Assembly (NCBI GenBank): GCA_013203045.1
Contig: JABMQN010000275.1
Location: 4,515-68,514, forward strand
From: Chloroflexota bacterium
GTDB taxonomy: Bacteria > Chloroflexota > Dehalococcoidia > SZUA-161 > SpSt-899
Direction: 5' to 3'
DNA length: 64,000 bases
Shown: in pieces, positions 2,328-25,666 of the stretch
How positions within the stretch are numbered: position 1 is the first letter of the stretch
Layout: each line of letters begins with the position of its first letter
Notes under the pieces: generated by a model
Databases searched by the model: none
Told to the model about the DNA's origin: nothing
The model's input: only the letters and a program-made list of their open reading frames with translations
Program-made: the position numbers and the translations under genes

Positions 2328-2906
2328 TCACGATAAAACACGGACTCCAAATTCTTTTAAACTATCTGCTACTGCATTCAATGGCAACCCTACAACATTA
2401 GAATAATCGCCTTCTATCCGTTCCACAATCACGCCGCCCAATCCTTGGATAGCATATGCTCCTGCCTTGCCAATTGACTCTTTTGTAGCTATATATGCTT
2501 CGATATCCTCACGGGACATATCCCTCATGTGCACCGTGGTCTCCACGGAGTCAGTTACTACTTTGGTAGCATCTGTATCCAGAATAGTGAAACCAGTGAT
2601 CACCAAATGGTCTTTCCCATTCAATATTGTCAACATTTCCCTCGCTTCACTATCCGTTCCCGGCTTACCGAGAATTTTATCGCCCAGAACGATAAAAGTA
2701 TCAGCCGCAATGATGATTGCGTCTGTATGATTTTTGGCCACAACCTGTGCTTTTTCGAGGGAAAGTGATTTTGCCAATTCGTGCGGAGAGAGATCAGGAT
2801 TCACTTGTTCGTCATGATTGCTCGATTCTATAACAAACTGCAGCCCGATTTGCTCCAACAATTCTTTTCTTCTCGGCGATGCCGATGCCAACACAATCTT
2901 CTTCAT
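2328..2906 (-). CDS. maf: Maf-like nucleoside triphosphate pyrophosphatase
   Basis: 192 aa. The start MKKIVLASASPRRKELLEQIGL and the body are a full-length match to the Maf family. Confidence 0.9.
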   Translation of the reverse strand: MKKIVLASASPRRKELLEQIGLQFVIESSNHDEQVNPDLSPHELAKSLSLEKAQVVAKNHTDAIIIAADTFIVLGDKILGKPGTDSEAREMLTILNGKDHLVITGFTILDTDATKVVTDSVETTVHMRDMSREDIEAYIATKESIGKAGAYAIQGLGGVIVERIEGDYSNVVGLPLNAVADSLKEFGVRVLS

Positions 2907-7216: not shown

Positions 7217-7233
7217 CAGGAGGACAAACGAAA

Positions 7234-11381: not shown

Positions 11382-11569
11382 GCGGTTGTGTTGGCCCTCC
11401 GCTTGCGTGTACTTCTTTTGTCCTGTATGCTTATATCAGTGGTTTAATAAAGGTTACCAGTTCCACAGGCACCCCCTGGACTTCCCCTTAAGGGCTTTTC
11501 AAGGCAAGGTTCTAAAAGATATTGGATGACCGGAATTGAGTTCACAATACTTGAAAAGGAGGTCATTCA

Positions 11570-11866
11570 ATGAGTTTCACTGATAGAGAACTGCAATGCG
11601 CCGATTGTGGAGCAACGTTCACCTTTAGTGCTAACGAGCAGGAGTTCTTTGCCGAGAAGGGTTTCACCAACGATCCCAAACGCTGTCCTGACTGTCGTTC
11701 AGCCAGAAAGATGGAACGTGGTGACAGGCGTGGTCCCAGGCAAATGTACCCGGCCGTATGCGCCGAATGTGGTATCGATACCGAAGTGCCGTTCCTGCCC
11801 AAACAAGACAGGCCGGTATATTGCAGCCAGTGCTATAATAGCGTTGGCTCTGCAAGCAGGCGATAG
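11570..11866 (+). CDS. zinc-ribbon domain protein (zf-trcl-like, two CxxC pairs x2)
   Basis: MSFTDRELQCADCGATFTFSANEQEFFAEKGFTNDPKRCPDCR ... CAECG...CSQCY is the characteristic probable-zinc-ribbon family. An AAGGAGG RBS sits upstream. Confidence 0.7.
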   Translation: MSFTDRELQCADCGATFTFSANEQEFFAEKGFTNDPKRCPDCRSARKMERGDRRGPRQMYPAVCAECGIDTEVPFLPKQDRPVYCSQCYNSVGSASRR

Positions 11867-11985
11867 CCTCAAACACAACAAAGTGATGAAAGAGAGGCCG
11901 GGGCCAGTTTCCGGTCTCTCTTTTATGATATCATTGATGCAGGAGTGAGAGCCTGTGGACAACAGATTCTTTTGAGGAGGTTATC

Positions 11986-12351
11986 ATCACCAATAAGATT
12001 TTTGTAGGAAATCTGAATTTCGAAACGATGCGAAGCGATATCGAAGGTCTTTTTGCTCAGTCTGGCGGTGTTATTGACGTATCAATCCCAACCGACCGGG
12101 ATACCGGTCGTCCAAGAGGATTCGCTTTTGTGGAATTTGTCGATGAACCATCTGCCATGAAAGCTATCGAAATGTTCGATGGGTATGATCTGCAGGGCAG
12201 GACGCTTCGAGTGAATCTGGCAGAAAAGCAACAGCAGCGCCCTCGTAGCTTTAGCGATTCCGGTCCATCTGGTGGGGGGTATCAAGGTTCGCGCGGTTCC
12301 AAACCAAAGGGCAGTCGCCGTAATATTCGTGCTCAAAAACGTGGGTATTGA
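11986..12351 (+). CDS. RNA-binding protein, RRM domain (RNP-2 IFVGNL, RNP-1 RGFAFVEF) with Gly/Arg-rich tail
   Basis: The first ATG (12028) lies downstream of the RNP-2 motif KIFVGNLNF, which is encoded in-frame at 11995..12021. A strong GAGGAGG at 11974..11980 points to a non-canonical start (ATC/ATT) near 11986; see findings. Confidence 0.7.
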   Translation: MTNKIFVGNLNFETMRSDIEGLFAQSGGVIDVSIPTDRDTGRPRGFAFVEFVDEPSAMKAIEMFDGYDLQGRTLRVNLAEKQQQRPRSFSDSGPSGGGYQGSRGSKPKGSRRNIRAQKRGY

Positions 12352-12391
12352 AGATTTGCTCAAATGAGATATCCCAGACGTCCCGATGTGA

Positions 12392-12425
12392 AAACAGGCT
12401 GACCGGAAGGTCGCCTGTTTTTTTG
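12392..12425 (+). terminator. rho-independent terminator after RRM gene
   Basis: ACAGGCtgaccggaaggtcGCCTGT followed by TTTTTTT. Confidence 0.75.
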
Positions 12426-12715
12426 TTAATCGGGTTTTTAAATTACTAGCGCTGTGCATCAAGTGACAGGCATACCGATTTACCATTACTCTGGCAATTA
12501 AATATTGTTAGAATAACGAGCTCTATCTTAATATTAATGACTCTCGCGAAGCCGCTAAGATCGCAAAGAAGTGAAAATACAAACTTTACGTTCATTGCGT
12601 CTTAGCGAGGAAATATGAACTCCAGCAGCAAAACGTGGAGGGGTGGGAGGACTGACAGCCGACAAATGATAGCTGACAGCACACTAGATGCCGGCACCGA
12701 TTTGCGAGTTACCGT

Positions 12716-12743
12716 TTTCGAACACCTTCCATCTTTGTTATAA
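12716..12743 (+). promoter_or_regulatory. sigma70-like promoter candidate for SDR gene at 12769
   Basis: TTCGAA - 16 nt - TATAAT. A GAAGGAGG RBS and the ATG at 12769 lie downstream. Confidence 0.45.
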
Positions 12744-12768
12744 TTTTCATGACTTGAAGGAGGTAATA

Positions 12769-13566
12769 ATGGGAACACTTGATGGGAAAGTAGCAGTGAT
12801 TACAGGTTCCGGCCGAGGTATCGGCAAAGAAACTGCCAGAATATTTGCCCGCGAGGGCGCCAGCGTGGTGATAAATGATGTGGATGAAGCTGTGGCTGCT
12901 GAAGCGGTTAAAGACCTTGAGGCCGAAGGCGGAACAGCGGCCTATTGCGTTGCCGATATACGCCAACTTGAAGAAGCCAAGAAACTGATGAAAACAGCCG
13001 TTGATGAGTTTGGCAAACTGGATATCCTGGTCAATAACGCCGGGATCGCCCGGGATACACTTGCCGGAAGGATGAGCGAGGAGCAATGGCAACTGGTCAT
13101 CGATATCAATCTGACAGGCACTTTCAACTGCATCCGGGCAGCATCCAAATATATGATGAAGAAAAGCCATGGCGGAAGAGTGATAAACATCTCTTCTGTA
13201 GTTGGTTTGGCAGGAAACATGGGACAGATCAATTATGCGGCCTCAAAAGCTGGCATTATCGGCATGACAAAAACTCTTGCCCGCGAATGGATGCGTTATG
13301 GCGTGACGGTCAACGCGGTCGCTTTCGGCGGTGTGGATACTCGATTCACCGCGGTAAAAGATGCTTCAGAAGAGGCTTTTGGCGAAAAGATCGGCATTCC
13401 GGAAAAGGCCCGTGAGGGGATGGTGGAACGGATGGAGACGCAGACCATTTTTGGCGGGATGACTACTCCAGAGCAGGCTGCTCAGTGTATCTACCTTTTA
13501 GCCCTTGATGAGGCTTCCTACATCACTGGTAACGTTTTGAATGCTACCGGTGGGTTGTACATGTAA
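12769..13566 (+). CDS. short-chain dehydrogenase/reductase
   Basis: MGTLDGKVAVITGSGRGIGKETA, NNAG, and YAASK motifs. A GGAGG RBS sits upstream; the track ORF started further upstream at 12688. Confidence 0.85.
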   Translation: MGTLDGKVAVITGSGRGIGKETARIFAREGASVVINDVDEAVAAEAVKDLEAEGGTAAYCVADIRQLEEAKKLMKTAVDEFGKLDILVNNAGIARDTLAGRMSEEQWQLVIDINLTGTFNCIRAASKYMMKKSHGGRVINISSVVGLAGNMGQINYAASKAGIIGMTKTLAREWMRYGVTVNAVAFGGVDTRFTAVKDASEEAFGEKIGIPEKAREGMVERMETQTIFGGMTTPEQAAQCIYLLALDEASYITGNVLNATGGLYM

Positions 13567-13567
13567 A

Positions 13568-13610
13568 ATAAAAGGGCGGGTTTTCAAACCCGCCCTTTAA
13601 CCTTCTTTTA
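13568..13610. terminator. bidirectional intrinsic terminator between convergent SDR (+) and GNAT (-) genes
   Basis: AAAGGGCGGGTTTtcaaAACCCGCCCTTT is a perfect 13-bp stem flanked by A/T runs on both sides. Confidence 0.7.
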
Positions 13611-14130
13611 GGGAAGCAACAGCTTCCATCTCAATAAACTCCTGCCCTTTCCTTACAATACGGCCACATGGAGTAAATCCACATCTTTCAAAGCATTCCT
13701 GCGCCCTGATATTCCATTCCAAAGTATGTAGAAATATCCTTTTCATCCCCATATCTTCAAAAATATGTTGCATCAGGGTCTTCACTGCGTCGGTGCCGTA
13801 TCCTTTTCCCCAGTATTCCCGATCGCCGATCAAAATGCCCATTTCTGCTTCTTTGCTCACCTTATCAAAGTTATAGCAAACACAATTGCCAATATGTTCA
13901 CCACTCAGCGTTTCAATGGCAAATTGCTTTTTGTCTAGATCACTTATTCCTTCATGATAGGCTACTAAGTATACAGAAAAAGGTATTTGGTAGGTTTCAG
14001 CAGCATCTAGACGTGTGAGCTCACGGTCAGTAGCCCAAGCATAATCGTTACTTGCATCCTCAAGTTGCTTTTCGCGCAGGATTACTTTCTGGCCATATAA
14101 CCGCTTGACTTGCCCTTCGTTCGTCATCAT
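13597..14130 (-). CDS. GNAT-family N-acetyltransferase (RimJ/RimL-like)
   Basis: 177 aa with an acetyl-CoA-binding region IGDREYWGKGYGTDAVKTL. Confidence 0.75.
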   Translation of the reverse strand: MMTNEGQVKRLYGQKVILREKQLEDASNDYAWATDRELTRLDAAETYQIPFSVYLVAYHEGISDLDKKQFAIETLSGEHIGNCVCYNFDKVSKEAEMGILIGDREYWGKGYGTDAVKTLMQHIFEDMGMKRIFLHTLEWNIRAQECFERCGFTPCGRIVRKGQEFIEMEAVASLKEG

Positions 14131-14412
14131 TGTTGCTATTCTATGGCCCGTTCCAGATGTGTGTCAAGAAAAGTGATGCATGATTCGTTTCCCTTAATAG
14201 AGAAAGTTTCCTAACAAACTGGGAAGTTTGTATCACCGGTTTGTACATATAGTCAAGCCGATATCTCCATCAAGAACTGACAACTACATCTTGATTCGAC
14301 TATAAGAGGTTTGAACTTAAACATTCAGATACTCGAGGTCTCACGTAATACCAGGACTGGCATTTCACTCTACAGCTAGAATGGATTCGTGAAAAACTGC
14401 TGAGATGCTAGT

Positions 14413-15051
14413 TCATAGGGACAATAGTTCATCCAGCTCAGCAATGGCGAGAGAGAGATCGTTTCCCACATGAACTGTTTGCATACCAAGCGAGCTTGCA
14501 GCTTCAATGTTGGCCGGGAAGTCATCGAGAAAAACGGTGCACTCTGGAGTCAATCCGCCCAAGCGTTCCAAAGTGATCCGGAATATCTTCGGATCAGGCT
14601 TTCGTATTCCCTCGTGGCTGGAATCTACCACCAAATCGAACAGGTCATCAACTGGCAAGAGTCCCCGCCAGCCATCAGAAAACTCCCTGATATTATTGGT
14701 AAGCAAGGCAGTAGGGTAACCTTTCTTCTTGAGGTCTGCCACCCGATCCACCAGTTCGTAGCGCAAGCCAGCATCGCGGGGCATCTTTTCGAAGAACTGA
14801 TAGATATCTACCTCCAGACCACAAATTTCATGACCTAGATGGAGGATTTCATCGCGCGCCTGCTCCAAAGTGATTTCACCACGCTCCAGGCAATGCCATG
14901 GATGGTCGCTGTCTTCCGCAGGGGGGCCAAACATAATTTCAACAATTTGTCCCGGTGCAGCGCCGAGTTCTGATCCTAGGTCTTCGCAAGAGGGCAACGG
15001 AGATGCGGTAAATACACCTCCGAAATCAAATATCACAGCATCGATTTTCAC
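14413..15051 (-). CDS. HAD-superfamily hydrolase (subfamily IA)
   Basis: Motif I KIDAVIFDFGGV and HAD motifs II-IV. I prefer a GTG start at 15051 (AAGGTG RBS, giving MKIDAVIFDFGGV) over the track start at 15117, because the latter would overlap the upstream gene by 53 nt. Confidence 0.7.
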   Translation of the reverse strand: MKIDAVIFDFGGVFTASPLPSCEDLGSELGAAPGQIVEIMFGPPAEDSDHPWHCLERGEITLEQARDEILHLGHEICGLEVDIYQFFEKMPRDAGLRYELVDRVADLKKKGYPTALLTNNIREFSDGWRGLLPVDDLFDLVVDSSHEGIRKPDPKIFRITLERLGGLTPECTVFLDDFPANIEAASSLGMQTVHVGNDLSLAIAELDELLSL

Positions 15052-15064
15052 ATTAGGCACCTTA

Positions 15065-16228
15065 TCAAATACGTCGTTTCGATTCCTCAAGGATCGGCAG
15101 GAAAACATTGCGTTCATTAGGCTTCATCTGAATCACATCATCCGGACAATGCAATGCACATAATCCACAGCCGCAGCACATTTCCGAGTTTATCACGGCA
15201 ATACCTTCCTCGCCAACTGCAATCGCGCTGACAGGACAGTACTCTTCGCATGTGCCGCATCCGGTGCAAGCATCCGGATCAACAATATTGGCAATATAAT
15301 ACGCTTTCAGCATAAATGGGATGATCCCTCGATTATAGTTACCAAAAGCTGCGCAGCAATCCCAGCAACAATTGCACAGGATATCAACATCATACTTGGC
15401 ATTGAAATCCTTGAGCGGCATGAGCCTGCCGACCTGGTGAATGCACCCTTTTTGCTGGTATTCCTTAATAAGCCGAATCGCCTCCTCTTTAGTAATACGG
15501 CGCGCAATGCCACGATTGATCAAGTGCTCTGCCGCAGGACCCAAAGCCATGCAGCTTTCATATGGGAGATGCTGCCTGCACGGGTCCCCATCCACCCTAC
15601 GATGTTCCCGGCAAAAGCAATGACTGAGAGTGATCACTTCGTCTTCGTCCAGCTTCTCAAAAATGTTAAGAATACTATGAGCCGGGTAGATCTCATTTAC
15701 GTCCGGGCGTACAGCCTCTTGAACAGGTATGATCTTGGAACCATCCGGATTCACCACGGCCAGGGAACGATGGGGGGCTACGTCCTGCATGACCTCGTTG
15801 ATGATCTCAGGGGGAATGGCCTTAGCCGCATTAAAGAAGGTAATGAGGCGTTTGCAAAATTCCTGTCTATCCGGCGTATTGGCTCCTCTCATTATATACA
15901 TTTCGAACCAGCCCGGGAAGATGGACATTAAATGGTAAATAGGCTCAGTATCACCCTCTGCCGGTGATGGCTGAGCGATATGGGTTTTATCCAGCAGGAT
16001 ATTGAATATACGATCGAACTCCTCTTTAGTAAGGCTAACTCGCTCTTCTATATCCGCACGTGTCCTGTTCCCGCCACCCATTTTGAGAAGGAAATCGACC
16101 TCCTCCGGTTCCAGCGCCGGATCGAAGACGTATAGCAGGTCATCCGTAACCATGGTAGGTGCTTCGGACTGTTCATTCATCAGGTTTGCCAGTTCCGCCA
16201 GCTTGTCCTTATTATTCTTGAATTCCAT
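15065..16228 (-). CDS. Cys-rich iron-sulfur protein with C-terminal 2x[4Fe-4S] ferredoxin domain (paralog of 21661..22632)
   Basis: CTGCGTCEEYCP and CCGCGLCALHCP are two CxxCxxCxxxCP motifs. An unusual cluster LCNCCWDCCAAFG is also present. The N-terminal ~250 aa are of unknown function. Confidence 0.6.
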   Translation of the reverse strand: MEFKNNKDKLAELANLMNEQSEAPTMVTDDLLYVFDPALEPEEVDFLLKMGGGNRTRADIEERVSLTKEEFDRIFNILLDKTHIAQPSPAEGDTEPIYHLMSIFPGWFEMYIMRGANTPDRQEFCKRLITFFNAAKAIPPEIINEVMQDVAPHRSLAVVNPDGSKIIPVQEAVRPDVNEIYPAHSILNIFEKLDEDEVITLSHCFCREHRRVDGDPCRQHLPYESCMALGPAAEHLINRGIARRITKEEAIRLIKEYQQKGCIHQVGRLMPLKDFNAKYDVDILCNCCWDCCAAFGNYNRGIIPFMLKAYYIANIVDPDACTGCGTCEEYCPVSAIAVGEEGIAVINSEMCCGCGLCALHCPDDVIQMKPNERNVFLPILEESKRRI

Positions 16229-16282
16229 TGCTCATTCCTCCGTTTTAGCCTTGTTTATTCCAGCGTGTAAACACGCCCTTTT

Positions 16283-16750
16283 CTACGTGATAGGTTCTAT
16301 GCTTACCCCACGCTCGACTGCTTTTTCCTGATATGAAGTGTACGTTTGAGTGACTTTTCCCCCCGTACTACCGGCAAGAAGATGGTTTGTTAAAATTGCC
16401 AGATCCCAGTATTCACGCCACACCGCAATCTTGCCATCACATATCACAAATGAATCCATCACTGGAACCATAACAGAACTGCCGTCTTTCAGGAAAGTCA
16501 GCTCTTCGCGTTCGAGTAATACAATGTCACCTTCCCCGACTATGTTGAGCAGCTTTCCTTCAAAATGATCGCACATATCTCGATAGGCATCAAGGATAGC
16601 ATAGATTTCATCTGGTCCCTGAACTGAAGGGCCTTTATCACATCGGTTCTCGTAAATTGCATCTTCTGTGAACCACTCCCGCGCCATGTCAGGAGTAAGG
16701 ATATACCACTCTAATGCGCAACGAGTGGTAAGGTCTTTGTTAGCCGACAT
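16283..16750 (-). CDS. NTF2-like / SnoaL-fold protein (limonene-epoxide-hydrolase-like size and fold)
   Basis: 155 aa with an alpha+beta cone-fold signature (EWYILTPDMAREWFTEDAIYEN...) and no other domains. Confidence 0.5.
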   Translation of the reverse strand: MSANKDLTTRCALEWYILTPDMAREWFTEDAIYENRCDKGPSVQGPDEIYAILDAYRDMCDHFEGKLLNIVGEGDIVLLEREELTFLKDGSSVMVPVMDSFVICDGKIAVWREYWDLAILTNHLLAGSTGGKVTQTYTSYQEKAVERGVSIEPIT

Positions 16751-16807
16751 GCTAATACCTCCTCAGTAACGCTGTTGCCCACGGTTTTTATCGCGAAACT
16801 CGGACTG

Positions 16808-18181
16808 TTATCCATCTAACTTTGCGATAACATCCTCGAGCAGATGGAGCACAGCGTGATCACCATCAATTTGAAGTTCGCCGCTCGTCCAGGCATGAAA
16901 CTGGTTCATCTCCCCTTTTCGAATCGCTGCCCAGATTTCAGCCGGCATGGTAACTGTAGTGGTGGGATTTGCAGCCATTCCCTCATGACGGCTCACGCTA
17001 CCGTTTTCACAAATCAGATACCAGTCAGTTGCCTCAGGTCCGGTAAGCCGATACTGAACCGTTGCCTCCAGATCCTCAATTCTGGTGATCTCTCTCCCCG
17101 CCGTGCCAGGAACCGGCAAGTTGAGTATTCTGGCGAGATACTGGGTGCAGAAATTATCTCTATCAGGATCATCGCCAGGCAGTGAAACACCTATCTGCTT
17201 CAGGTTCCGCTGAACCTTGACCACATGCAAACCCATAACACACGCTGCCCGGACCTCATTGTAGAAATAATGTTTTACTTTCCTGCCGGTTAACTCTTCG
17301 TATCGCTGAATGGTCTCTTCTTTGCTCGGGAAGCCATCTAGCCTCGGGACACCGATACCCTCACCTAATAGATAATCAGTAGTAATGAGAAACGCCAAAT
17401 CTGATTCGGGGTCTCCGATGTGAGAGATATCCCAGTCCAGCAATCCTAACAAGTCTCCTGCCGGGCTAAAGATCGAATTGGGAAACCGGGCATCGCCCCA
17501 GCACAACGAGACATGTTCAGGCTCATACCGATTCTCTTTGAGCCAGGCCAGCGCTGCTTCAAGGATTGGGTGTGTTTCGTCTGGAGTATCTTTAGTCCAA
17601 TCGAGGAATTTCTCCCAGCGGTCAAGGTCCTGATCTACCGGACCGGTGCCATGGGGGGGAATCGTAAGGAAAGAGAAGTCCATACTCTTCCAGTCCAACG
17701 TATGCAAACGGGCCATGCCTTCGATGAGTTGCCACCACATCTTTTCCCGTAATTCGGGACTGGCGTCATAGCAAATCCCAAAAGAGTGATAAGGCGGGAA
17801 TTCGGAGGGCACAGTGCCATCTAGTTTGTTCATTAGGTAAAACGGTGTGCCGAAAATGCTTGTATCGCTTTCAAACCAGTAAACCCTGGGCGCCGGAACA
17901 TTCGTATTTCCCAGCTGTTCCAGTATGCGGAATTGCATCTCGACCTTAGGTTCCGGATAGATGGGATAGACCGTGCCTTCACATCTTAGAATCATCCCAG
18001 CGGACTTGTGTTCCCCGCCTTCATCCCATGACAGGTCGAAGAGGAAACTTTCGTTGGTAAAGCCTGCCCCTGATCGTTCTAAATCCGAAATCGCGAAATT
18101 CGAGGCTTGGGGCATCTTCTTTCGAAGCCAGCCCAGAAGTTTCGATTGCATGTCCAGCAGGTCAACGTCACGGGACATCAT
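16808..18181 (-). CDS. APH-like phosphotransferase (ACAD10/11-kinase-like) fused to C-terminal SCP2 sterol/lipid-binding domain
   Basis: Brenner-like catalytic segment LCWGDARFPNSIF and the metal-binding motif LLDWDISHIGDPESD. The C-terminal ~100 aa (TGPEATDWYLICENG...MNQFHAWTSGELQIDGDHAVLHLLE) is SCP2-like. Confidence 0.7.
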   Translation of the reverse strand: MMSRDVDLLDMQSKLLGWLRKKMPQASNFAISDLERSGAGFTNESFLFDLSWDEGGEHKSAGMILRCEGTVYPIYPEPKVEMQFRILEQLGNTNVPAPRVYWFESDTSIFGTPFYLMNKLDGTVPSEFPPYHSFGICYDASPELREKMWWQLIEGMARLHTLDWKSMDFSFLTIPPHGTGPVDQDLDRWEKFLDWTKDTPDETHPILEAALAWLKENRYEPEHVSLCWGDARFPNSIFSPAGDLLGLLDWDISHIGDPESDLAFLITTDYLLGEGIGVPRLDGFPSKEETIQRYEELTGRKVKHYFYNEVRAACVMGLHVVKVQRNLKQIGVSLPGDDPDRDNFCTQYLARILNLPVPGTAGREITRIEDLEATVQYRLTGPEATDWYLICENGSVSRHEGMAANPTTTVTMPAEIWAAIRKGEMNQFHAWTSGELQIDGDHAVLHLLEDVIAKLDG

Positions 18182-18192
18182 GTCGCACCTCT

Positions 18193-18251
18193 TTTTCGTA
18201 GCGCGACCCTTCAGGATCGCTTTTTGGCGGGGCTAAAGCCTCGCGCTACAT
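18193..18251. repeat. palindromic extragenic repeat copy A (TIR TTCGTAGCGCGA ... TCGCGCTACAT)
   Basis: Its 11-bp terminal inverted repeats and the core CCTTCAGGATCGCTT match the longer copy at 32068..32189. Confidence 0.55.
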
Positions 18252-18259
18252 GTTAATGA

Positions 18260-20224
18260 TTATGCCAGGAGACTTCTTGTTTCTAGGTCATCAGCGATAT
18301 CACCAAGGTTAAGTCCTTCCATCTGTGCCTTCGTTTGCAGACCAGTGGCCACGTCCCATCGCCGCAGTTCGTAGTACTCATCTTTCATTTTCTCGAACTT
18401 CTCTCGATCGATAACCTCACCCTTTCGAGAGACCACTTCCCAATTCTTTCCGGGAACCTGGCAGTGAGGATTCGAAATATCATAATTCAACGGCACATTG
18501 TAACATTGATCAGAAAGGATATCGAAGTCTCTCCCTCGGTGACCTTCCCTGACAAGAATTGCCCTTTGCAGATTAAATATTCTCTCCCCAACTTTGTATA
18601 GCCCTACCTCATCTATCTCATTACCCGTGACTGCGGAAAGAAGCTTGCTTTCCAGCGTGGGATCGCCAACGTGGTCCTCAGTGTTGGGCAGATCAGTCAG
18701 AGGCCATATATAGTCGCATAGAATAAGCGATTCTTTCACATATTGCCGATCCTGGATCATTTTTGCTGCCAATGCTTTGCCTTCGTAAGTCGAGAAATCT
18801 GCGGCGATCTCACTTCCCCAGAACCTTTTGGCAATCGCACGGAGCACATCAGTGGTGACGTGGCCCAAACCCATTGTAGCTGAGACTGTCCAGAGAGGAA
18901 GAAGCAATCCTACTTCATGGATTTGCTGGATAGGAATCCGCGGTTCCATGGCATATGGGAACGCATTCGTTATGTAGAGTCGCGGTCCATATATGTCAGT
19001 GCCGGGCTCATCCAGATAGCCAGCCAGTTCGAGCTCTCTGATCGCATCAGGGCCAACTGCTTCTGCAGCTTTCTCGATCCCTTGAGCAAGTATATCCCCA
19101 AAGCCTTCTCTGAAGGCGATCTTGCGTATCAGAGTCTCGATGTACTCCTGACTTCCCAGCTTTGAGAGCGGGATGCCGGTGCTTGCATCGGTGAGGATAC
19201 CAGCTTTATAACAACGCTCAAGCCAGTTGATTAATAAATCAACAGCCACAGCATCGAGCCCGAGATCATCACAAAGCTTATTGGCAATAAACGGGACGTC
19301 ATTCCAGTCTTCGTAATACTCGTCGGTGTGCGGCTGATAGAAAAAGGCGGAGTGGCACACGAATTTCCCCTTCTTGCCATCCTGAGCCACGTACACTTTT
19401 CGAGGACACCTGCCAATACATCCGTAGCATGGCTCTTTTTTCATATCCTGGTTGGGGACAACCTTGAAATCCGCAATGATATCCCTTGACCATCTGCCCA
19501 GGTATTCGGTGAAACCCCTTTCCAGGGCTTTGTAATACTGAGTCAGTTCTTTCAGCCTTTCCGGACTGGCTACATTCGATCCCTTCTTGGTACCTTTCAC
19601 TACAACTGCTTTGAGATTCTTTGAACCCATTACAGCACCCAATCCACCAGTACAGACAGCATCATTATCCGCGGTCAGGATAGCCGCTACACACATGTTC
19701 TCGCCAGCGGGGCCAATCGCCACTACTCGTGCAGAGTCCCCCAGCTCATCTTTAAGAATTTGCCTGGTTTCGATGGCACCTTTTCCCAAAAGACTGGAAG
19801 CACCTTTCAGTTCTGCGGATTCTTCATCGAAGCGGATATAGACTGGCTTTTCGGACTTCCCATGGATCACTATGGCATCGTAGCCAGCAAACTTCATTTC
19901 GGCTCCGAACCGACCTCCCAGGTTGCCATAGGAGAACGATTCCGGAATTGGCTCGGGAGATTTTCCACAGATGGTCCACCGTGAACCACCGATCACTGGG
20001 ATTCCGCAAAGTGGCCCAGTGGCAAATATAAGTCTGTTTTCGGCATCAAAGGCGCCGATTTCCGGGGGAACCTCGTCCCAGTAGATTTTGGCTGCGATTC
20101 CCCTCCCCCCCAGGAATCTGTCTGCATAGTCTGCGGTGGAGGTCTCGGTTATTTTTCCCGAAGTTAGATCGATCCGAAGGATCTTTCCTGCATATCCGAA
20201 TGATGTCATTTCTCTGCCTTTCAT
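18260..20224 (-). CDS. aor: tungsten-containing aldehyde:ferredoxin oxidoreductase (AOR family)
   Basis: FGYAGKILRIDLTSGKI N-terminus plus the pterin- and [4Fe-4S]-binding regions typical of AOR. ~650 aa. The real start is probably MTSFGYAGK at 20209. Confidence 0.85.
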   Translation of the reverse strand: MKGREMTSFGYAGKILRIDLTSGKITETSTADYADRFLGGRGIAAKIYWDEVPPEIGAFDAENRLIFATGPLCGIPVIGGSRWTICGKSPEPIPESFSYGNLGGRFGAEMKFAGYDAIVIHGKSEKPVYIRFDEESAELKGASSLLGKGAIETRQILKDELGDSARVVAIGPAGENMCVAAILTADNDAVCTGGLGAVMGSKNLKAVVVKGTKKGSNVASPERLKELTQYYKALERGFTEYLGRWSRDIIADFKVVPNQDMKKEPCYGCIGRCPRKVYVAQDGKKGKFVCHSAFFYQPHTDEYYEDWNDVPFIANKLCDDLGLDAVAVDLLINWLERCYKAGILTDASTGIPLSKLGSQEYIETLIRKIAFREGFGDILAQGIEKAAEAVGPDAIRELELAGYLDEPGTDIYGPRLYITNAFPYAMEPRIPIQQIHEVGLLLPLWTVSATMGLGHVTTDVLRAIAKRFWGSEIAADFSTYEGKALAAKMIQDRQYVKESLILCDYIWPLTDLPNTEDHVGDPTLESKLLSAVTGNEIDEVGLYKVGERIFNLQRAILVREGHRGRDFDILSDQCYNVPLNYDISNPHCQVPGKNWEVVSRKGEVIDREKFEKMKDEYYELRRWDVATGLQTKAQMEGLNLGDIADDLETRSLLA

Positions 20225-20255
20225 ACAGCCTGTAAAAAACTGAAATTATATTTGA

Positions 20256-21626
20256 CTATGACTGGGTGAACTCTGCGATTACGTCTTCAAGGAGCGAGAG
20301 TAGTCCCAGATCACCTTCAGTCACCAGTCTACCCGTTGTCCATGCGTCTATCTGGTTCAGTTCCCCAGCACGAATTGCCTTCCAATCCTCGAGTGAGGCT
20401 TTGATGGTACAATTCGGATTCTCAATAATGCCCTCGTGTCGAGTTCCCTTGCCTTTGTCTGAAATCAAATACCAGTCACTTCCACCGGGTCCGGTGAAGC
20501 GAAACTGGACACTGACAGTCACTTCGTTGATGTCCGTAATAACTTCTTTCTTCTCACCCGGAGGCGGCAACTGCAAAAGGTCAGCCAGATGCTGGGTAGA
20601 GAAGTTATTGAAAAGCAAGTCGTCTTCGATTGGCATGCCTTGTGAGCGGAACCTCTTCAGAGCAGAAATCACGGTCAAACCATATCGAAAGGTGGCCATG
20701 ACTTCGTTGTAGAAGAGGTTCTTGACCTTCCACCCGGTGAGTTCCTCGTATCTGCGGACAATCTCCTCATCCTCCGGTGTTCCGGGCAAACGCGGTAGCC
20801 CGTAACCTTTGCTGTGTTGTTTATCCAGAGTGAAGAACCAGGCCAGGTCAAATTCCGGGTCCCCAATGAAGACCATCTCCCAGTCCATAATGGCCAGCAC
20901 GTCTCTCTCTGGAATACTATAGAGCGTATTTCCAATGCGGGCATCTCCCCAGCACAGACAGATGCGCTCCGGTACATAGCGGTTTTCCTTAAGCCATTCC
21001 AGAGTGGCTTCCATGGTCGGGTGCGATTCCTGAGGATCATCTTTCACCCAGTCGTTTAAGTAGCTGTCCCAGTAGATTAGCTGTTGATCGATAGGATCGG
21101 TGCCCCCACCTGGTATTTTGAGGAAGTCGATACCCATGTTTCTCCAGTCCAGTTTGTGGATCTCGGTTATCGCTTCAAGACATCCCCACCACATTTTGGC
21201 ACGTTTTTCAGGTGTGGCTTCAAAATACATCCCAGATCCGTGATACGAAGGATAATCCTGGGGAACATCCCCTTCCAGTTTCTCCATAAGGAAGAACGGA
21301 ACCCCAATAATAGCAGGGTCTTCTTCCAGCCAGAGCATTTTGGCCACCGGCACTTTCGTGGGATATAAAATCTTCATAGTTCGGAACTGGAGACCGAGAT
21401 CATATTCAGGGAAACTCCCCTGGCCCCATGGTGCGGCCCGGAGAACTACGCCCATTGATTTTTTCTCGCCGGATTCCTCCCATTCCATATCAAACAGATA
21501 GGTTTCGCTGGAGAGGCCCATGCCGGGTTTGTTTAAATCACTAATCGATATTTTGTCAGCCTGGGGCATCTTCTTTTGAACCCAGGCAGTGAGCTTAGCT
21601 TGAATTTCGGAAAGGTCCGGCTCCAT
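20256..21626 (-). CDS. APH-like phosphotransferase fused to C-terminal SCP2 domain (paralog of 16808..18181)
   Basis: Same architecture as 16808..18181: CLCWGDARIGNTLYS, IMDWEMVFIGDPEFD, and a C-terminal SCP2-like FRFTGPGGSDWYLISDKG...AWTTGRLVTEGD. Confidence 0.7.
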   Translation of the reverse strand: MEPDLSEIQAKLTAWVQKKMPQADKISISDLNKPGMGLSSETYLFDMEWEESGEKKSMGVVLRAAPWGQGSFPEYDLGLQFRTMKILYPTKVPVAKMLWLEEDPAIIGVPFFLMEKLEGDVPQDYPSYHGSGMYFEATPEKRAKMWWGCLEAITEIHKLDWRNMGIDFLKIPGGGTDPIDQQLIYWDSYLNDWVKDDPQESHPTMEATLEWLKENRYVPERICLCWGDARIGNTLYSIPERDVLAIMDWEMVFIGDPEFDLAWFFTLDKQHSKGYGLPRLPGTPEDEEIVRRYEELTGWKVKNLFYNEVMATFRYGLTVISALKRFRSQGMPIEDDLLFNNFSTQHLADLLQLPPPGEKKEVITDINEVTVSVQFRFTGPGGSDWYLISDKGKGTRHEGIIENPNCTIKASLEDWKAIRAGELNQIDAWTTGRLVTEGDLGLLSLLEDVIAEFTQS

Positions 21627-21660
21627 TGCAATCTCCTATCGATTCATTCAGAATCACAGT

Positions 21661-22632
21661 TTAGGCGGGTTTTAGCGCGCTCTTGATTTCATCTAAATCC
21701 AGCGGTTCGCCCTTGGAAGGATCAAGACGAAGACTGATTGCTCCATCAGGACATACGCCTTCACAACCACCGCATCCCATACATTTTTCAAGATCGATGA
21801 CAGGTTGCTGCTTTTCTTCATCCATTTTCATACAATCGAAGTTGCATGAATCCACACACGTACCACATCCTGTGCATACATCAGTATCTACTTCGGCAAC
21901 ATATCCAGATGGAACCAGGAAGCATAGATCCCCCATTGCCTTGGCCATCGGGATTCCGCCCATCAGATTCCACATCTTCACACCCATGCAGCAGCAACTG
22001 CAACAATTGCAGATAGCGAAAAACCGACTACCAATTTCCCTCTTGAAATAAGCACAATGGACTTCGCCGCGCTTATGAGACTCCTCCAATACCTGAACTG
22101 CCTCTTCCGGCGTAATCTTGCGGAACTTTGGATTCAGGTCCGCAATGAACTGGGCAGCCGGGTCCCCCACCATCAGGCACACTTCCATTGGGTAGGGCAA
22201 GCATGGATTATCCGAATTCAACCGGCATCCGCACGGGCCAATTGCAAGAGACTGTGGATTCTGCAGGATAACATCTCTGGCGATTTTCCAGGGAACCACT
22301 TGTTCCGGCAAGGGCATATTAAGATCTTCTTTCTGTGATACCAATTTGACCGCATCGAGGAATTTCACTACTTTCGTATGGTATATATCCGTTTCCGGAC
22401 CTCCTTGAGCCCCCTCTGCAATCTCCTTGACATAGGCCTCCAGCATCTCCGCGATTCCTTCTTCCAGTGGACCCAAATCCTCATGGACGATTTCTTTGTA
22501 AGGCAAATCAATATCCCTGCAGGCGATGGATGCGAATCGATTGATGTACTTCAGATACATGTACCCGCCAAAGAAATCATTCCGATTTTCCGGACCAAAC
22601 ATGTTGAAAAATTCTTCCGTCGAATTATGCAT
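21661..22632 (-). CDS. Cys-rich iron-sulfur protein with C-terminal 2x[4Fe-4S] ferredoxin domain (paralog of 15065..16228)
   Basis: CTGCGTCVDSC and CMGCGGCEGVCP are the ferredoxin motifs. A cluster ICNCCSCCCMGVK matches LCNCCWDCC in the paralog. Confidence 0.6.
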   Translation of the reverse strand: MHNSTEEFFNMFGPENRNDFFGGYMYLKYINRFASIACRDIDLPYKEIVHEDLGPLEEGIAEMLEAYVKEIAEGAQGGPETDIYHTKVVKFLDAVKLVSQKEDLNMPLPEQVVPWKIARDVILQNPQSLAIGPCGCRLNSDNPCLPYPMEVCLMVGDPAAQFIADLNPKFRKITPEEAVQVLEESHKRGEVHCAYFKREIGSRFFAICNCCSCCCMGVKMWNLMGGIPMAKAMGDLCFLVPSGYVAEVDTDVCTGCGTCVDSCNFDCMKMDEEKQQPVIDLEKCMGCGGCEGVCPDGAISLRLDPSKGEPLDLDEIKSALKPA

Positions 22633-22664: not shown

Positions 22665-23840
22665 TCAGTTTTCTGATTCCGTAGCTATTTGCTCCGTGAG
22701 TGTTCCGTATGTACCATATCCTTCATAACCGTACTTGAGGTATTTGCCCGGGATCATTAACTCCGTAGTCCCATATCCCACATCTCCGTCGCAGGTGAAT
22801 TTTGAACCATAGTCGCAGTATCCCCAGATCTCCTTCATTACCTCAGGATCGCTGACATTCAGTTTGTAACCATCCATCCACTGCGGCCCCATCCACAAAC
22901 CGTGAATGAATCCCTTGTAAAGCCCCCCGTATCCACCGGGCGACTGGTAGCAAATGGTTATCGGCTCAATGGTGACTTCTTTGGTTGTACCGTCGATGGC
23001 TGTCATCACCACTTTCCCACCGGAAAAGCGTCGCAGTTGCTCTGGTTTCTCATCGCTAAACTCAAAGTAATGCTCGACGTTTGCTAACTCCAGCGGTTCT
23101 TTATTACTCCCGTATGGATAGTAAAGTCCACCACTGAAATGCCATCTTCTGGGCATGTTTAAATTGTCATCCCAGATCTCCCGAATGTGAAAGGTGGCAC
23201 CCCAATCCTGAAATTGCATCAGTACAAAATTGAAAAGTTGTCCAGCGTGAATCTCCGGGAACTGCACACCGGTTTCTACGAAATCCGCTCCGGCCATTCT
23301 GACACCCCAAGATCGATCCCTTTCACCCACCCACTTCTCTTTATTAAGCTGAAAGGTCTCGTCGCCAGCCTTGATCCACCCGGTTGGTCTTCCGCTCTGG
23401 ACCATGCGCTTAATATTCTCTCTTTCCCTGCCACGGCTGATTTGCTGCTGGGCACCCTCTTCATACAGGGGACTTACCCCATCCAATTCTATGTCATAGC
23501 TCAATCCATACTCGTTCTCATCGAGCTTGAACCTGACTTTCTTTAATGGCTCAGTCACCTCGTAGGAAAACGGACCGACTTTGAAAACGCCGATGTCAGG
23601 TCTGAGTTCGCGCGAGGCACGCACAATGTACTCCGTTTCATCCCGAATTGTGAAGCACACATAGGCATCCATTACGTTCCGATTGGGGTAGTACCCGAAG
23701 CCGGTAGCAATGTGAGCTGTGCCATCGATATCGTGCACCTGGAGCCAGGATCTTTCCGTCCATTCTCTGGCACTCGTGCCGGGACGGTCGAATGTTGATA
23801 CCGCCTGATGGCAGAACAGCTCGTCATATTTGGTAATCAT
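22665..23840 (-). CDS. hypothetical protein (unrecognised fold; Gly/Tyr-rich C-terminus)
   Basis: 391-aa ORF running co-directionally within the gene array. I recognise no motif. Confidence 0.45.
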   Translation of the reverse strand: MITKYDELFCHQAVSTFDRPGTSAREWTERSWLQVHDIDGTAHIATGFGYYPNRNVMDAYVCFTIRDETEYIVRASRELRPDIGVFKVGPFSYEVTEPLKKVRFKLDENEYGLSYDIELDGVSPLYEEGAQQQISRGRERENIKRMVQSGRPTGWIKAGDETFQLNKEKWVGERDRSWGVRMAGADFVETGVQFPEIHAGQLFNFVLMQFQDWGATFHIREIWDDNLNMPRRWHFSGGLYYPYGSNKEPLELANVEHYFEFSDEKPEQLRRFSGGKVVMTAIDGTTKEVTIEPITICYQSPGGYGGLYKGFIHGLWMGPQWMDGYKLNVSDPEVMKEIWGYCDYGSKFTCDGDVGYGTTELMIPGKYLKYGYEGYGTYGTLTEQIATESEN

Positions 23841-23869: not shown

Positions 23870-24673
23870 CTATTCCAAACCCATGAGCCTCGTTATTCCA
23901 AAGCGATGGCCAACAGTGAATCCGCCATCGACCATCAGTGCATGCCCGGTTATGAATGAAGCTTCATCCGATGCCAGGAAAAGGACTGCGTTGGCGATCT
24001 CCTCTGGGCGTCCAATCCTTCCTAGTAGAATAGCTTCGATGATGTGGTCGCGGAAGTCCTTGAGGATTTCGTTATCCAGCACCGTTTCTGAAGCCAATGG
24101 CGTATCAACAAATCCGGGACAAATCGTATTCACCCGAATGCCTTTACGAGCATAGTCCATGGCCATGTTCCGGGTGAGCAGGATGACGCCACCCTTGGAG
24201 ACATTGTACGCACTCCCCCCCTCAGAACCTTCAATCCCCTCGATACTCGAGATATTTACAATGCTGCCGGAGCCCTGCTCGACCATCTGTCCGACTGCGT
24301 ATTTACACACGAGGAAAGTTCCCTTGAGATTGATGTCCATCACGCGATCCCATTCTTCCGTGGGAAGCATATGTACCGGTCCGCCACTTGCTATACCCGC
24401 GCAGTTCACAACGATATCAAGACGACCAAACCGTTTCACAGTTCCTTCTATAACACTTCGGATGCGTTCCTCATCTCGGACGTCGCCGATTTCAAAATAG
24501 GATTCCGGGGCAATTTCGACGGCCTTTTTCCAAGTGTCATTCGTAGTCTCGCCGATATCGAAGCCCACAACCCATGCCCCCTCCTGAACAAATCGCAATG
24601 CACATGCAGCTCCTATCCCTGAAGCAGCACCTGTTATGAATGCCACCTTGTCTTTCAATCGAGTCATGTTCAA
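23870..24673 (-). CDS. short-chain dehydrogenase/reductase
   Basis: ITGAASGIGAACA, NCAG, and YNVSK motifs. Confidence 0.85.
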   Translation of the reverse strand: MNMTRLKDKVAFITGAASGIGAACALRFVQEGAWVVGFDIGETTNDTWKKAVEIAPESYFEIGDVRDEERIRSVIEGTVKRFGRLDIVVNCAGIASGGPVHMLPTEEWDRVMDINLKGTFLVCKYAVGQMVEQGSGSIVNISSIEGIEGSEGGSAYNVSKGGVILLTRNMAMDYARKGIRVNTICPGFVDTPLASETVLDNEILKDFRDHIIEAILLGRIGRPEEIANAVLFLASDEASFITGHALMVDGGFTVGHRFGITRLMGLE

Positions 24674-24691
24674 TCTCCAAATGACTTGCTT

Positions 24692-25114
24692 TTATTCTGA
24701 ACGGACCAGTCGAGAGCCGAAAGCGACTGTCTCTGCATATGCCGTATCAGGGAATTCGAATACCTCAACAACCTTCTCATCCTTAAAACGGAAAAAGAAT
24801 ACATATAAATTATTGTAGTCATTTCCCGTTTTTGTCTTTGCTTCCCCTCGTGCCCGAACTACGACTGTATTTCCTTCAGCGATCAGTTCTTCCGGATGTA
24901 CCATTATATACTCAAGCTGTTCGAAGAAGCTGAGCCACATATTCATGATTTGTTCTTTGCCATGAAACGTACCAGATACCGGCATATCACCCGGTACTAC
25001 ATATTGAACATCATCGGCAAATATTTCAAGTAAATCCGGGTCCGAAGCATTAAGCTTTTCAAAGTACCGGATGATTGCTTCTTTGTACTGATTTTTCATT
25101 GCTTGGCTTTTCAA
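24692..25114 (-). CDS. NTF2-like / SnoaL-like (ketosteroid-isomerase-like) protein
   Basis: 140-aa cone fold, comparable in size and pattern to SnoaL/KSI-like proteins. Confidence 0.5.
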   Translation of the reverse strand: MKSQAMKNQYKEAIIRYFEKLNASDPDLLEIFADDVQYVVPGDMPVSGTFHGKEQIMNMWLSFFEQLEYIMVHPEELIAEGNTVVVRARGEAKTKTGNDYNNLYVFFFRFKDEKVVEVFEFPDTAYAETVAFGSRLVRSE

Positions 25115-25153
25115 TTACAGGCTGCTGTCTATAATCAGGATTTCATTTTGCTG

Positions 25154-25666
25154 CTATTGCCCAAGGGCTTCCAGCAATGCTCCTCTATTCTTGGCCCAAC
25201 CTTCATTATAGGGGCTAATGTAGTTCCATTTCGTCTTTATCGAATCGAATTTCCACCTGCCATCTTCCCTTACATACTCCTCGAAGTATGTTCCCATCAT
25301 CCATTGAGCTACACCCGTTGAAGTATCGGTGGTCGGAGCTTCATAATACCAGCGACCTGTCGCTCTATCACCATCCACTTCGATGATCGGATTATGTACC
25401 ATATGAATGCAGAAGGAAACCGCTCCCGGGACAACTTCCCCGAAGAATACTTTCAATCCTTCGGGGCCCTCAAAATGAGATCCCTCGCCAAGACCGAAGT
25501 CTACTTTGGCACCTTTAGTGAAGTGGGAAATCAGTTCATCTCGATTCTTGGGATCATCCAAGCCTGCATCGCACAAATAGCAATATGTAGCCTTGAGCTT
25601 CTTAATTTCTTCGATATCCTCCAGCACCTTGATCCGTGCTTCCAAATCTTCCAGGGTCATATACAA
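25154..25666 (-). CDS. NTF2-like protein (SnoaL_4 / DUF4440-like)
   Basis: 170 aa. The N-terminus MTLEDLEARIKVLEDIEEIKKLKATYCY is typical of SnoaL_4. Confidence 0.5.
   Translation of the reverse strand: MYMTLEDLEARIKVLEDIEEIKKLKATYCYLCDAGLDDPKNRDELISHFTKGAKVDFGLGEGSHFEGPEGLKVFFGEVVPGAVSFCIHMVHNPIIEVDGDRATGRWYYEAPTTDTSTGVAQWMMGTYFEEYVREDGRWKFDSIKTKWNYISPYNEGWAKNRGALLEALGQ

What the first reader, a model, noticed from the sequence alone, without database searches (positions are those of the whole stretch)
15065..22632. Two paralogous Cys-rich proteins with a CxCCxxCC cluster plus 2x[4Fe-4S] ferredoxin domain
The products of 15065..16228 and 21661..22632 share an unusual motif, LCNCCWDCC versus ICNCCSCCC. 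Both go on to two canonical CxxCxxCxxxCP ferredoxin motifs, and both have large N-terminal domains I cannot place. The AOR here has no adjacent small ferredoxin subunit, so these may be its electron-transfer partners or novel Fe-S enzymes.
Basis: seen in the sequence. Interest (0 to 1): 0.55.

Follow-up and report, generated by a model that had tools for sequence, protein, structure and literature searches.

The report
Uncharacterised nine-cysteine iron-sulfur ferredoxin-fusion family
Two genes in a Chloroflexota catabolic operon encode members of a large, unnamed family of anaerobe proteins that join a previously undescribed nine-cysteine metal-cluster domain to an ordinary two-cluster ferredoxin domain, and they most likely shuttle electrons for the tungsten/molybdenum aldehyde oxidoreductase and similar enzymes.

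Summary
Both ORFs are real, on the minus strand, and homologous (29% identity over 188 aa, E=1e-16). They share CxCR-x(6-9)-C-x(6-8)-C ... H ... CNCCxxCC (nine conserved Cys), followed by a 2x[4Fe-4S] ferredoxin domain.

AOR linkage is real but partial. After de-replication, 5 of 16 close groups have a same-strand AOR within 4 kb, against 2 of 42 distant groups. None of seven ProtA-type loci has one. Other recurrent neighbours are a family III CoA-transferase, an NAD epimerase-like reductase, FAD oxidoreductases and BcrAD-type ATPases.

My best reading is a modular multi-cluster electron-transfer partner, serving AOR in this operon (confidence about 0.45). The main rival is a catalytic Fe-S enzyme acting on a hydrophobic substrate.

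The operon also encodes homologues of 25-hydroxysteroid kinase (two copies, each fused to SCP2) and of 25-phosphosteroid lyase.

The parts
21661..22632 (-). ProtB: 323-aa Fe-S protein (helical N-terminal region + nine/ten-Cys domain + 2x[4Fe-4S] ferredoxin domain). Identical to NCBI NQT74815.1, '4Fe-4S binding protein', Chloroflexota MAG.
21895..22335 (-). ProtB Cys-rich core domain (residues ~100-246). Invariant C134, C136, R137, C144, C152 and C208, N209, C210, C211, C213, C214, C215. AF2 pLDDT is above 90.
21988..22011 (-). ProtB CNCCSCCC motif (C208-C215)
22177..22233 (-). ProtB CGCR-x6-C-x7-C block (C134-C152)
21724..21894 (-). ProtB 2x[4Fe-4S] ferredoxin domain (residues ~247-303; C253/256/259/263 and C284/287/290/294)
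15065..16228 (-). ProtA: 387-aa paralogue (acidic winged-helix-like N-terminus + nine-Cys domain + 2x[4Fe-4S] ferredoxin domain). Identical to NCBI NQT74810.1.
15764..16228 (-). [not shown]
15290..15673 (-). ProtA Cys-rich core domain (residues ~186-313). Invariant C204, C206, R207, C217, C226, H264, C285, C287, C288, C291, C292. The CNCCWDCC motif lies at 15353-15376.
15119..15289 (-). ProtA 2x[4Fe-4S] ferredoxin domain (residues ~314-370)
18260..20224 (-). AOR-family tungsten/molybdenum pterin oxidoreductase (654 aa), the proposed redox partner
   Evidence: AFOR_N 7.5e-65, AFOR_C 1.6e-50; 1AOR 1.2e-57, BamB 4Z3W 1.7e-57
22665..23840 (-). Rv3169-family protein, homologue of 25-phosphosteroid lyase. 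It lies directly upstream of ProtB here and in the closest homologous loci (L001, L088, L089).
20256..21626 (-). APH-family kinase fused to SCP2 (25-hydroxysteroid-kinase-like / Rv3168-like), between ProtB and AOR
16808..18181 (-). Second APH-family kinase fused to SCP2, downstream of AOR
16283..16750 (-). SnoaL/limonene-epoxide-hydrolase-like protein, directly upstream of ProtA
23870..25666 (-). SDR (23870-24673), SnoaL_2 (24692-25114) and SnoaL_4 (25154-25666): the head of the co-directional cluster. The same order is seen in L001.

Best explanation
ProtA and ProtB belong to a large, uncharacterised family of anaerobe Fe-S proteins. A C-terminal clostridial-type 2x[4Fe-4S] ferredoxin domain is fused to a roughly 130-residue alpha/beta domain with nine invariant cysteines: CxCR..C..C plus CNCCxxCC. 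I infer that this domain binds further iron-sulfur cluster(s), probably two, extending the electron path to about four clusters. I propose that the protein is a modular one-electron carrier or adaptor that docks onto ferredoxin-dependent catabolic oxidoreductases. In this operon ProtB would take the electrons that AOR's own [4Fe-4S] cluster releases during aldehyde oxidation, or supply them for acid reduction, and pass them to the cell's low-potential pool. The operon appears to degrade a hydrophobic, isoprenoid- or steroid-like alcohol through a kinase/phospho-lyase dehydration. ProtA is a paralogue with an acidic winged-helix docking domain. It is usually a stand-alone gene, and here it probably serves the same operon or another partner. 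Shown: homology, motif conservation, the ferredoxin domain, the absence of any known family or fold for the core, and the gene neighbourhoods. Inferred: cluster binding by the nine Cys, the number of clusters, and the partner and direction of electron flow.
Against: No biochemical data exist. AOR is absent from most family loci and from all seven other ProtA-type loci. Many members are stand-alone genes with unrelated neighbours. A plain carrier does not obviously need about 250-310 extra residues, invariant Arg/His/Asn/Glu/Tyr in the core, or an SCP2 lipid-binding fusion; these features suit an enzyme. In L069 the nearby AOR has its own polyferredoxin. I could not read model coordinates, so the cluster geometry of the nine Cys is untested.
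Confidence: 0.45

Rival explanations
1. The nine-Cys domain is a catalytic Fe-S site and the protein is a self-contained oxidoreductase acting on a hydrophobic substrate, with the ferredoxin domain as electron entry. Candidate reactions in this operon include reducing or rearranging an alkene, allyl phosphate or CoA-ester intermediate produced by the kinase/phospho-lyase and CoA-transferase enzymes.
For: Several family members carry C-terminal SCP2 lipid-binding domains (P0213, P0214, P0217, P0223, P0226, P0233, P0273). Polar residues in the core are invariant or nearly so: R after CxC at 97%, H at 81%, N in CNCC at 91%, plus E and Y within the A/B alignment. The N-terminal regions are large and highly conserved (mean column identity 60-71%). 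Many loci are stand-alone, as expected for a self-sufficient enzyme. Neighbours handle hydrophobic or CoA-bound substrates: SCP2-kinases, SnoaL-like proteins, CoA-transferase, ChsH2-OB and SCPx thiolase.
Against: No similarity to any known catalytic Fe-S fold. No recurrent substrate-defining neighbour across the family. The SCP2 fusion is confined to some lineages. The variety of adjacent redox enzymes fits a carrier better.
Confidence: 0.3
2. The Cys-rich domain is a thiol/disulfide-active Fe-S site working like HdrB or ferredoxin:thioredoxin reductase. Adjacent Cys next to cluster ligands would reduce a disulfide or polysulfide using ferredoxin-level electrons.
For: Tandem and vicinal Cys (CxCC, CC, and CCC in ProtB) exceed what cubane ligation needs. 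One family member (P0366, 887 aa) is fused to a CCG domain. The distribution is in anaerobes, many of them sulfur-metabolising.
Confidence: 0.1
3. ProtA is an Fe-S redox-sensing transcription factor that uses its winged-helix domain to bind DNA.
Confidence: 0.07

Closest known systems
Fe-S (polyferredoxin-type) subunits of multi-subunit AOR-family enzymes: AorA of Aromatoleum aromaticum AorABC, the WOR5 small subunit (PDB 6X6U_B) and BamC of class II benzoyl-CoA reductase. The enzymology is from my own knowledge.
   Same: They are encoded with an AOR-family gene, carry Fer4-type [4Fe-4S] clusters, and are presumed to relay electrons from the pterin subunit's cluster.
   Different: Those subunits are about 150-200 aa and built only of Fer4 motifs. 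ProtA and ProtB have one dicluster Fer4 domain plus an unrelated nine-Cys alpha/beta domain and a 100-185-aa N-terminal region. Sequence similarity is limited to the Fer4 part (6X6U_B E=8e-4). ProtB is separated from AOR by a kinase gene, and most family members have no AOR nearby.
Clostridial-type 2x[4Fe-4S] ferredoxin domains as found in RnfB, PorD/KorD, HdrA and FwdF/MvhB polyferredoxins
   Same: These are the best sequence and fold matches of the C-terminal 55-60 residues.
   Different: All NCBIfam hits are far below their family cut-offs (for example RnfB 46 bits against 68.7, PorD 41 against 60). None covers the N-terminal 245-312 residues.
HdrB / CCG-domain proteins (non-cubane [4Fe-4S] clusters bound by CC-containing motifs)
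   Same: Vicinal cysteines sit in a cluster-binding alpha/beta domain coupled to ferredoxin-type clusters. One family member is fused to a CCG domain (P0366).
Ferredoxin of class I benzoyl-CoA reductase clusters (Thauera Fdx; my own knowledge)
   Same: In L076 two family genes lie in a BcrAD-ATPase / HGD-D / CoA-ligase cluster, and in L007 two family genes precede two BcrAD ATPases. That is the position a dedicated electron-donor ferredoxin would occupy.
   Different: Thauera Fdx is a small 2x[4Fe-4S] protein without extra domains. The association is seen in only about 4 of 169 loci.

Membership tests
2x[4Fe-4S] bacterial-type ferredoxin domain (Pfam Fer4 / Fer4_21 / Fer4_7) | Two CxxCxxCxxxC(P) motifs about 30 residues apart | tested here: met
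   ProtA has CTGCGTCEEYCP and CCGCGLCALHCP. ProtB has CTGCGTCVDSCN and CMGCGGCEGVCP. All eight Cys are invariant or at least 90% conserved.
2x[4Fe-4S] bacterial-type ferredoxin domain (Pfam Fer4 / Fer4_21 / Fer4_7) | HMM score above Pfam gathering threshold | tested here: met
   Fer4 scores 41.7 and 44.7 bits (cut-off 21.1); Fer4_21 scores 35.3 and 37.2 (cut-off 35); Fer4_7 scores 30.4 and 36.5 (cut-off 27).
2x[4Fe-4S] bacterial-type ferredoxin domain (Pfam Fer4 / Fer4_21 / Fer4_7) | Ferredoxin fold | tested here: met
   [not shown]
AOR-associated polyferredoxin subunit (AorA / WOR5-small / YdhX-Y type) | Small protein composed only of about four Fer4 cluster motifs | tested here: not met
   There are only two Fer4 motifs. 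The remaining 245-312 residues match no Fer4 model.
AOR-associated polyferredoxin subunit (AorA / WOR5-small / YdhX-Y type) | Gene consistently adjacent to an AOR-family gene | tested here: inconclusive
   The genes share an operon here, and in 5/16 close groups AOR lies within 4 kb, but only in 2/42 distant groups and 0/7 ProtA-type loci.
AOR-associated polyferredoxin subunit (AorA / WOR5-small / YdhX-Y type) | Physical complex and electron transfer with the AOR subunit | not testable with these tools
   This needs co-purification, activity assays or a multimer prediction.
HdrB/HdrD CCG-domain proteins (PF02754) | CCG-domain HMM match or CXnCCGXmCXXC motif | tested here: not met
   No Pfam hit at E<=10 on the N-terminal parts. 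The motif is absent from the sequences.
HdrB/HdrD CCG-domain proteins (PF02754) | HdrB-like fold | tested here: not met
   [not shown]
QueG epoxyqueuosine reductase | Cobalamin-binding QueG/DUF1730 domain with a Fer4_16-type dicluster | tested here: not met
   No QueG, DUF1730 or Fer4_16 family hit for ProtA or ProtB in Pfam or NCBIfam.
HdrC-like ferredoxin | Match to HdrC / Fer4_8 / Fer4_17-type models as the whole protein | tested here: not met
   No Fer4_8 or Fer4_17 hit in Pfam and no HdrC model among the 25 NCBIfam hits shown for each protein. The only Hdr hits are sub-threshold matches of the Fer4 domain to HdrA/HdrA2 models.
Winged-helix Fe-S transcription regulators (Rrf2 / MarR / ArsR-like) | Winged-helix fold | tested here: met
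   [not shown]
Winged-helix Fe-S transcription regulators (Rrf2 / MarR / ArsR-like) | Sequence membership in an HTH family and a basic DNA-binding surface | tested here: not met
   No HTH Pfam or NCBIfam hit. Net charge of residues 1-100 is -12, range -17 to -5 across 30 homologues.
Ferredoxin:thioredoxin reductase catalytic subunit | CPC-x16-CPC-x8-CHC motif | tested here: not met
   The motif is absent from both sequences, and there is no PDB sequence or fold match.

The most novel reading that the evidence does not exclude
The nine-Cys CxCR..C..C / CNCCxxCC domain is a new iron-sulfur fold. It would hold an unusual cluster arrangement (paired, non-cubane or otherwise Cys-rich-ligated) that forms a catalytic site, making these proteins a new class of ferredoxin-fed Fe-S oxidoreductases for hydrophobic substrates. 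In this operon it would supply a redox step linked to the kinase/phospho-lyase dehydration of an isoprenoid- or steroid-like alcohol in strictly anaerobic Chloroflexota.
Probability: 0.25. Interest if true: 0.8.

Novelty: new variant of a known kind. Interest (0 to 1): 0.55.

Why it matters
Ferredoxin-domain fusion proteins are common, but this family is large: about 1,900 clusters at 50% identity across many anaerobic bacterial and archaeal phyla, including Asgard archaea and cultured sulfate reducers. Despite that, its defining domain has no Pfam or NCBIfam model and no solved or recognisably similar structure. Public records call its members only '4Fe-4S binding protein', 'ferredoxin', 'PreA subunit' or even 'ATP-binding protein'.

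Defining the family would improve annotation of a recurrent component of catabolic operons in uncultured subsurface Chloroflexota. If it is AOR's partner, that would identify the physiological electron acceptor of these AORs, which have no ferredoxin gene nearby. If it is catalytic, it would add a new Fe-S cofactor environment.

The operon context also suggests that the ATP-dependent kinase/phospho-lyase dehydration known from anaerobic sterol side-chain degradation exists in anaerobic Chloroflexota, here combined with a tungsten/molybdenum AOR. This context comprises 25-HSK-like kinases fused to SCP2, a 25-PSL-like lyase, AOR, an SDR and SnoaL-like proteins.

Tried and rejected
- Pfam at E<=10 on the N-terminal 245 and 312 residues found nothing (one SHOCT hit at E=0.06, 13 bits, which I ignored).
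- NCBIfam gave only sub-threshold Fer4-containing families.
- PDB sequence searches returned only Fer4 matches or spurious designed-PPR repeat hits. These searches used the full proteins, the core-domain profile and two Cys-rich peptides.
- The afdb50 fold library was not available.
- The idea of a dedicated AOR subunit was rejected as a family-wide statement.
- The idea of an obligate A+B heteromer was rejected: only 7 of 168 loci carry two family genes.
- I tested whether the adjacent FAD oxidoreductases are CtmAB/delta-24-desaturase-type enzymes whose unknown acceptor this family might be. The covalent-FMN consensus from PMC11061730 was not found; one partial match occurred among 18 neighbours.
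- The transcription-factor reading of ProtA is disfavoured by its acidic winged helix.
- The promoter/terminator scan gave fewer sites than shuffled controls and is uninformative apart from one strong terminator outside the cluster.
- Five literature searches aimed at this family or its AOR operon context found no description of it ([syntax error], 30, 62, 89).
- An apparent conserved 'neighbour' cluster proved to be antisense ORF artefacts in high-GC loci.


Full report
**1. Observation**

Both ORFs exist on the minus strand. I call 15065..16228 (387 aa) ProtA and 21661..22632 (323 aa) ProtB.
- ProtA contains ..DILCNCCWDCCAAF.. and ProtB contains ..FAICNCCSCCCMGV...
- A six-frame scan of the 64-kb window finds CxCCxxCC only at these two sites. 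It finds CxxCxxCxxxC motifs only in these two ORFs.
- BLASTP of the two proteins gives 29% identity over 188 residues, E=1e-16. The alignment starts about 120 residues upstream of the ferredoxin domain. They are therefore true paralogues, not a chance motif match.
- Pfam places a dicluster ferredoxin domain at ProtA 315-370 and ProtB 246-300, above gathering thresholds, and nothing else.
- One minor correction: ProtB's first ferredoxin motif ends CN, not CP.

**2. The conserved core**

I aligned 39 ProtB homologues and 29 ProtA homologues and made a joint alignment of the core (A3). These show a shared block: CxCR-x(6-9)-C-x(6-8)-C ... G ... H ... CNCCxxCC.
- Nine Cys are universal. ProtB's subfamily has a tenth (CNCCxCCC).
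- In 107 full-length domain representatives at 50% identity, the Cys are 88-100% conserved, the Arg 97%, the Asn 91% and the His 81%.
- The AlphaFold2 model of ProtB is confident (pLDDT 92.9, pTM 0.91). It shows an alpha/beta domain in which the Cys sit at strand ends and helix starts.
- ProtA is modelled at pLDDT 79, with a disordered linker at residues 161-183.

**3. Not a known family**

None of the following found a match for the core.
- No Pfam hit at E<=10 for the N-terminal 245 and 312 residues.
- NCBIfam hits only the ferredoxin part, far below cut-offs.
- PDB sequence searches with the proteins, the core profile and two Cys-rich peptides return only ferredoxin domains or spurious repeat hits.

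ProtA's winged-helix region is strongly acidic in all 30 aligned homologues (median net charge -12). This argues against DNA binding and for protein docking.

**4. Size and spread of the family**
- A profile of the core, searched against 1.84 billion representatives, finds 1,894 clusters at E<=1e-3 and 674 at E<=1e-10.
- In every architecture examined the core directly precedes the dicluster ferredoxin domain. Variants add a C-terminal SCP2 domain, and one adds an N-terminal CCG-containing region.
- Species-representative genomes with the family include Dehalococcoidia, Anaerolineae, Desulfobacterota, Syntrophales, Actinomycetota, Spirochaetota, Thermotogae, Acetothermia, Geoglobus and Methanomassiliicoccaceae. 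The Desulfobacterota include Desulfofustis glycolicus DSM 9705 and Nitratidesulfovibrio liaohensis.
- ProtA-type proteins of about 530 aa occur in Heimdall/Asgard MAGs.
- The exact window proteins are NCBI NQT74815.1 and NQT74810.1, '4Fe-4S binding protein', from a Chloroflexota MAG contig of 93.6 kb. A relative more than 90% identical is even labelled 'ATP-binding protein'.

**5. Context in the window**

From about 25666 down to 14413 all genes are on the minus strand. Gaps in the stretch from the PSL-like gene to ProtA are 31-78 bp, and there is no convincing internal terminator. The gene order is:
- SnoaL_4
- SnoaL_2
- SDR
- Rv3169-family protein
- ProtB
- APH+SCP2 kinase
- AOR
- APH+SCP2 kinase
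- SnoaL/LEH-like protein
- ProtA
- HAD hydrolase

A PAS-LuxR regulator and a periplasmic binding protein lie just upstream.

The Rv3169-family protein matches the solved '25-phosphosteroid lyase' over its full length (9FZN, E=3e-34). The kinase matches 9FSG 'aminoglycoside phosphotransferase-like protein' (2e-40), 3ATS/3ATT (2e-36) and the ACAD11 kinase domain. In Sterolibacterium denitrificans, a phosphotransferase-family 25-hydroxysteroid kinase plus a phosphate-eliminating lyase dehydrate a tertiary alcohol during anaerobic sterol side-chain oxidation (PMC8449060, PMC11061730). The operon thus looks like a catabolic route for a hydrophobic alcohol in which AOR would oxidise an aldehyde. This pathway assignment is inference.

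**6. Is the family AOR's partner?**

I examined 169 related loci from genomes, metagenomes and exact-protein look-ups.
- Across the whole family no neighbour is conserved.
- Within ProtB's clade (at least 50% identity) recurrent same-strand neighbours appear: CoA-transferase III in 19 loci, an NAD epimerase/3-beta-HSD-like reductase in 18, FAD amine-oxidase-like oxidoreductases in 17, AOR in 14, PAS-LuxR in 9 and SDR in 8.
- Two operon types place the family gene with AOR. The first is AOR-(ThiF-small ORF)-epimerase-like-FAMILY-CoA-transferase-(ChsH2-OB-SCPx thiolase), in L002, L104, L106, L108-L111 and L115. The second is AOR-PSL-like-FAMILY, in L088, L089 and the window.
- After de-replication at 85% identity, AOR lies within 4 kb in 5 of 16 close groups against 2 of 42 distant groups (p=0.014).
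- In these operons the family protein is the only Fe-S protein besides AOR.
- Against a dedicated partnership: ProtA-type genes in seven other loci have no AOR. In L069 the nearby AOR has its own polyferredoxin.
- The family also sits beside FAD oxidoreductases, beside BcrAD ATPases with HGD-D and a CoA ligase (L076; L007 has two family genes plus two BcrAD ATPases), and beside NuoE/F-like and Hyp genes.

**7. Interpretation**

The steady coupling of the core to a ferredoxin domain, the acidic surfaces, and the promiscuous pairing with ferredoxin-dependent enzymes best fit a modular multi-cluster electron carrier or adaptor. In this window it would serve AOR. I give this a confidence of about 0.45.

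The large conserved extra domains, the invariant polar residues and the SCP2 fusions keep a catalytic role alive (about 0.3). A disulfide-reductase-like chemistry (about 0.1) and a regulator role for ProtA (about 0.07) are less likely.

What is shown: homology, motif conservation, absence from curated families and from PDB folds, and the neighbourhood statistics. What is inferred: cluster binding by the nine Cys, the cluster count, and the partner and direction of electron flow.

**8. Novelty**

The sequences are public but only generically annotated. I found no paper describing the family. I rate it a new variant of a known kind (ferredoxin-domain fusion Fe-S proteins) with an undescribed cluster-binding domain. 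It is moderately interesting, and more so if the domain proves catalytic or holds an unusual cluster.

Noticed in passing
window 22665-23840 (-), 20256-21626 (-), 16808-18181 (-): The 'hypothetical' Rv3169-family protein is a full-length homologue of the solved 25-phosphosteroid lyase (9FZN/9G2I/9G4C, E=3e-34). The two flanking APH-family kinases match 9FSG (2e-40) and 3ATS/3ATT (2e-36; Rv3168 of M. tuberculosis, from my own knowledge). This kinase + phospho-lyase pair resembles the ATP-dependent dehydration step of anaerobic sterol side-chain degradation, here in a Chloroflexota MAG and combined with an AOR (PMC8449060, PMC11061730).
   Followed up: partly
window 16808-18181 and 20256-21626 (-): Both kinases carry a C-terminal SCP2 sterol/lipid-carrier domain. 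SCP2 is also fused to some members of the Fe-S family in Asgard archaea and other lineages. Both observations point to a hydrophobic substrate.
   Followed up: partly
L007 644-4377; L076 4365-13744: Two independent loci carry two tandem family genes next to two BcrAD/BadFG-type ATPases. L076 also has an HGD-D component, DUF1329 and a CoA ligase. This may be an ATP-driven benzoyl-CoA-reductase or dehydratase-like system that uses the family as donor or as a component.
   Followed up: partly
window 2903-4261 (-), 5765-7216 (+), 7165-8442 (+): An FAD amine-oxidase-like oxidoreductase, a ChsH2-type OB-fold (DUF35-like) protein and an SCPx-type thiolase lie in the window. The same gene types recur next to ProtB homologues elsewhere, and the last two are typical of steroid or branched-chain side-chain cleavage.
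   Followed up: no
L001 (GCA_046484125.1) 11034-16674: Downstream of the ProtB homologue lie an APS kinase, a sulfotransferase and two molybdopterin oxidoreductases. A second DUF7064/PSL-like paralogue sits next to an AOR upstream. Sulfation may replace phosphorylation there.
   Followed up: no
window 15065-15117: The HAD-hydrolase ORF as listed (14413..15117) overlaps the 3' end of ProtA by 53 nt. This could be a real overlap or a mis-set start.
   Followed up: no
window 13571-13598: A strong bidirectional terminator-like hairpin (12 bp stem, 7 GC pairs) lies between the convergent SDR (12688-13566, +) and GNAT (13597-14130, -) genes. It probably marks the 3' end of the minus-strand cluster.
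   Followed up: no
P0366 (887 aa, metagenomic): A single family member is fused to an N-terminal region with a CCG (HdrB/D-type) domain. It could be a genuine fusion hinting at thiol/disulfide chemistry, or a gene-calling artefact.
   Followed up: no
window 60139-61776 (-): A B12-binding radical SAM protein (545 aa) is followed by a PAS-GAF histidine kinase at 62274-63995. They appear unrelated to the finding.
   Followed up: no
P0388 (MFC2027274.1): A protein more than 90% identical to ProtB is annotated 'ATP-binding protein' in NCBI. This looks like a mis-annotation of the family.
   Followed up: no
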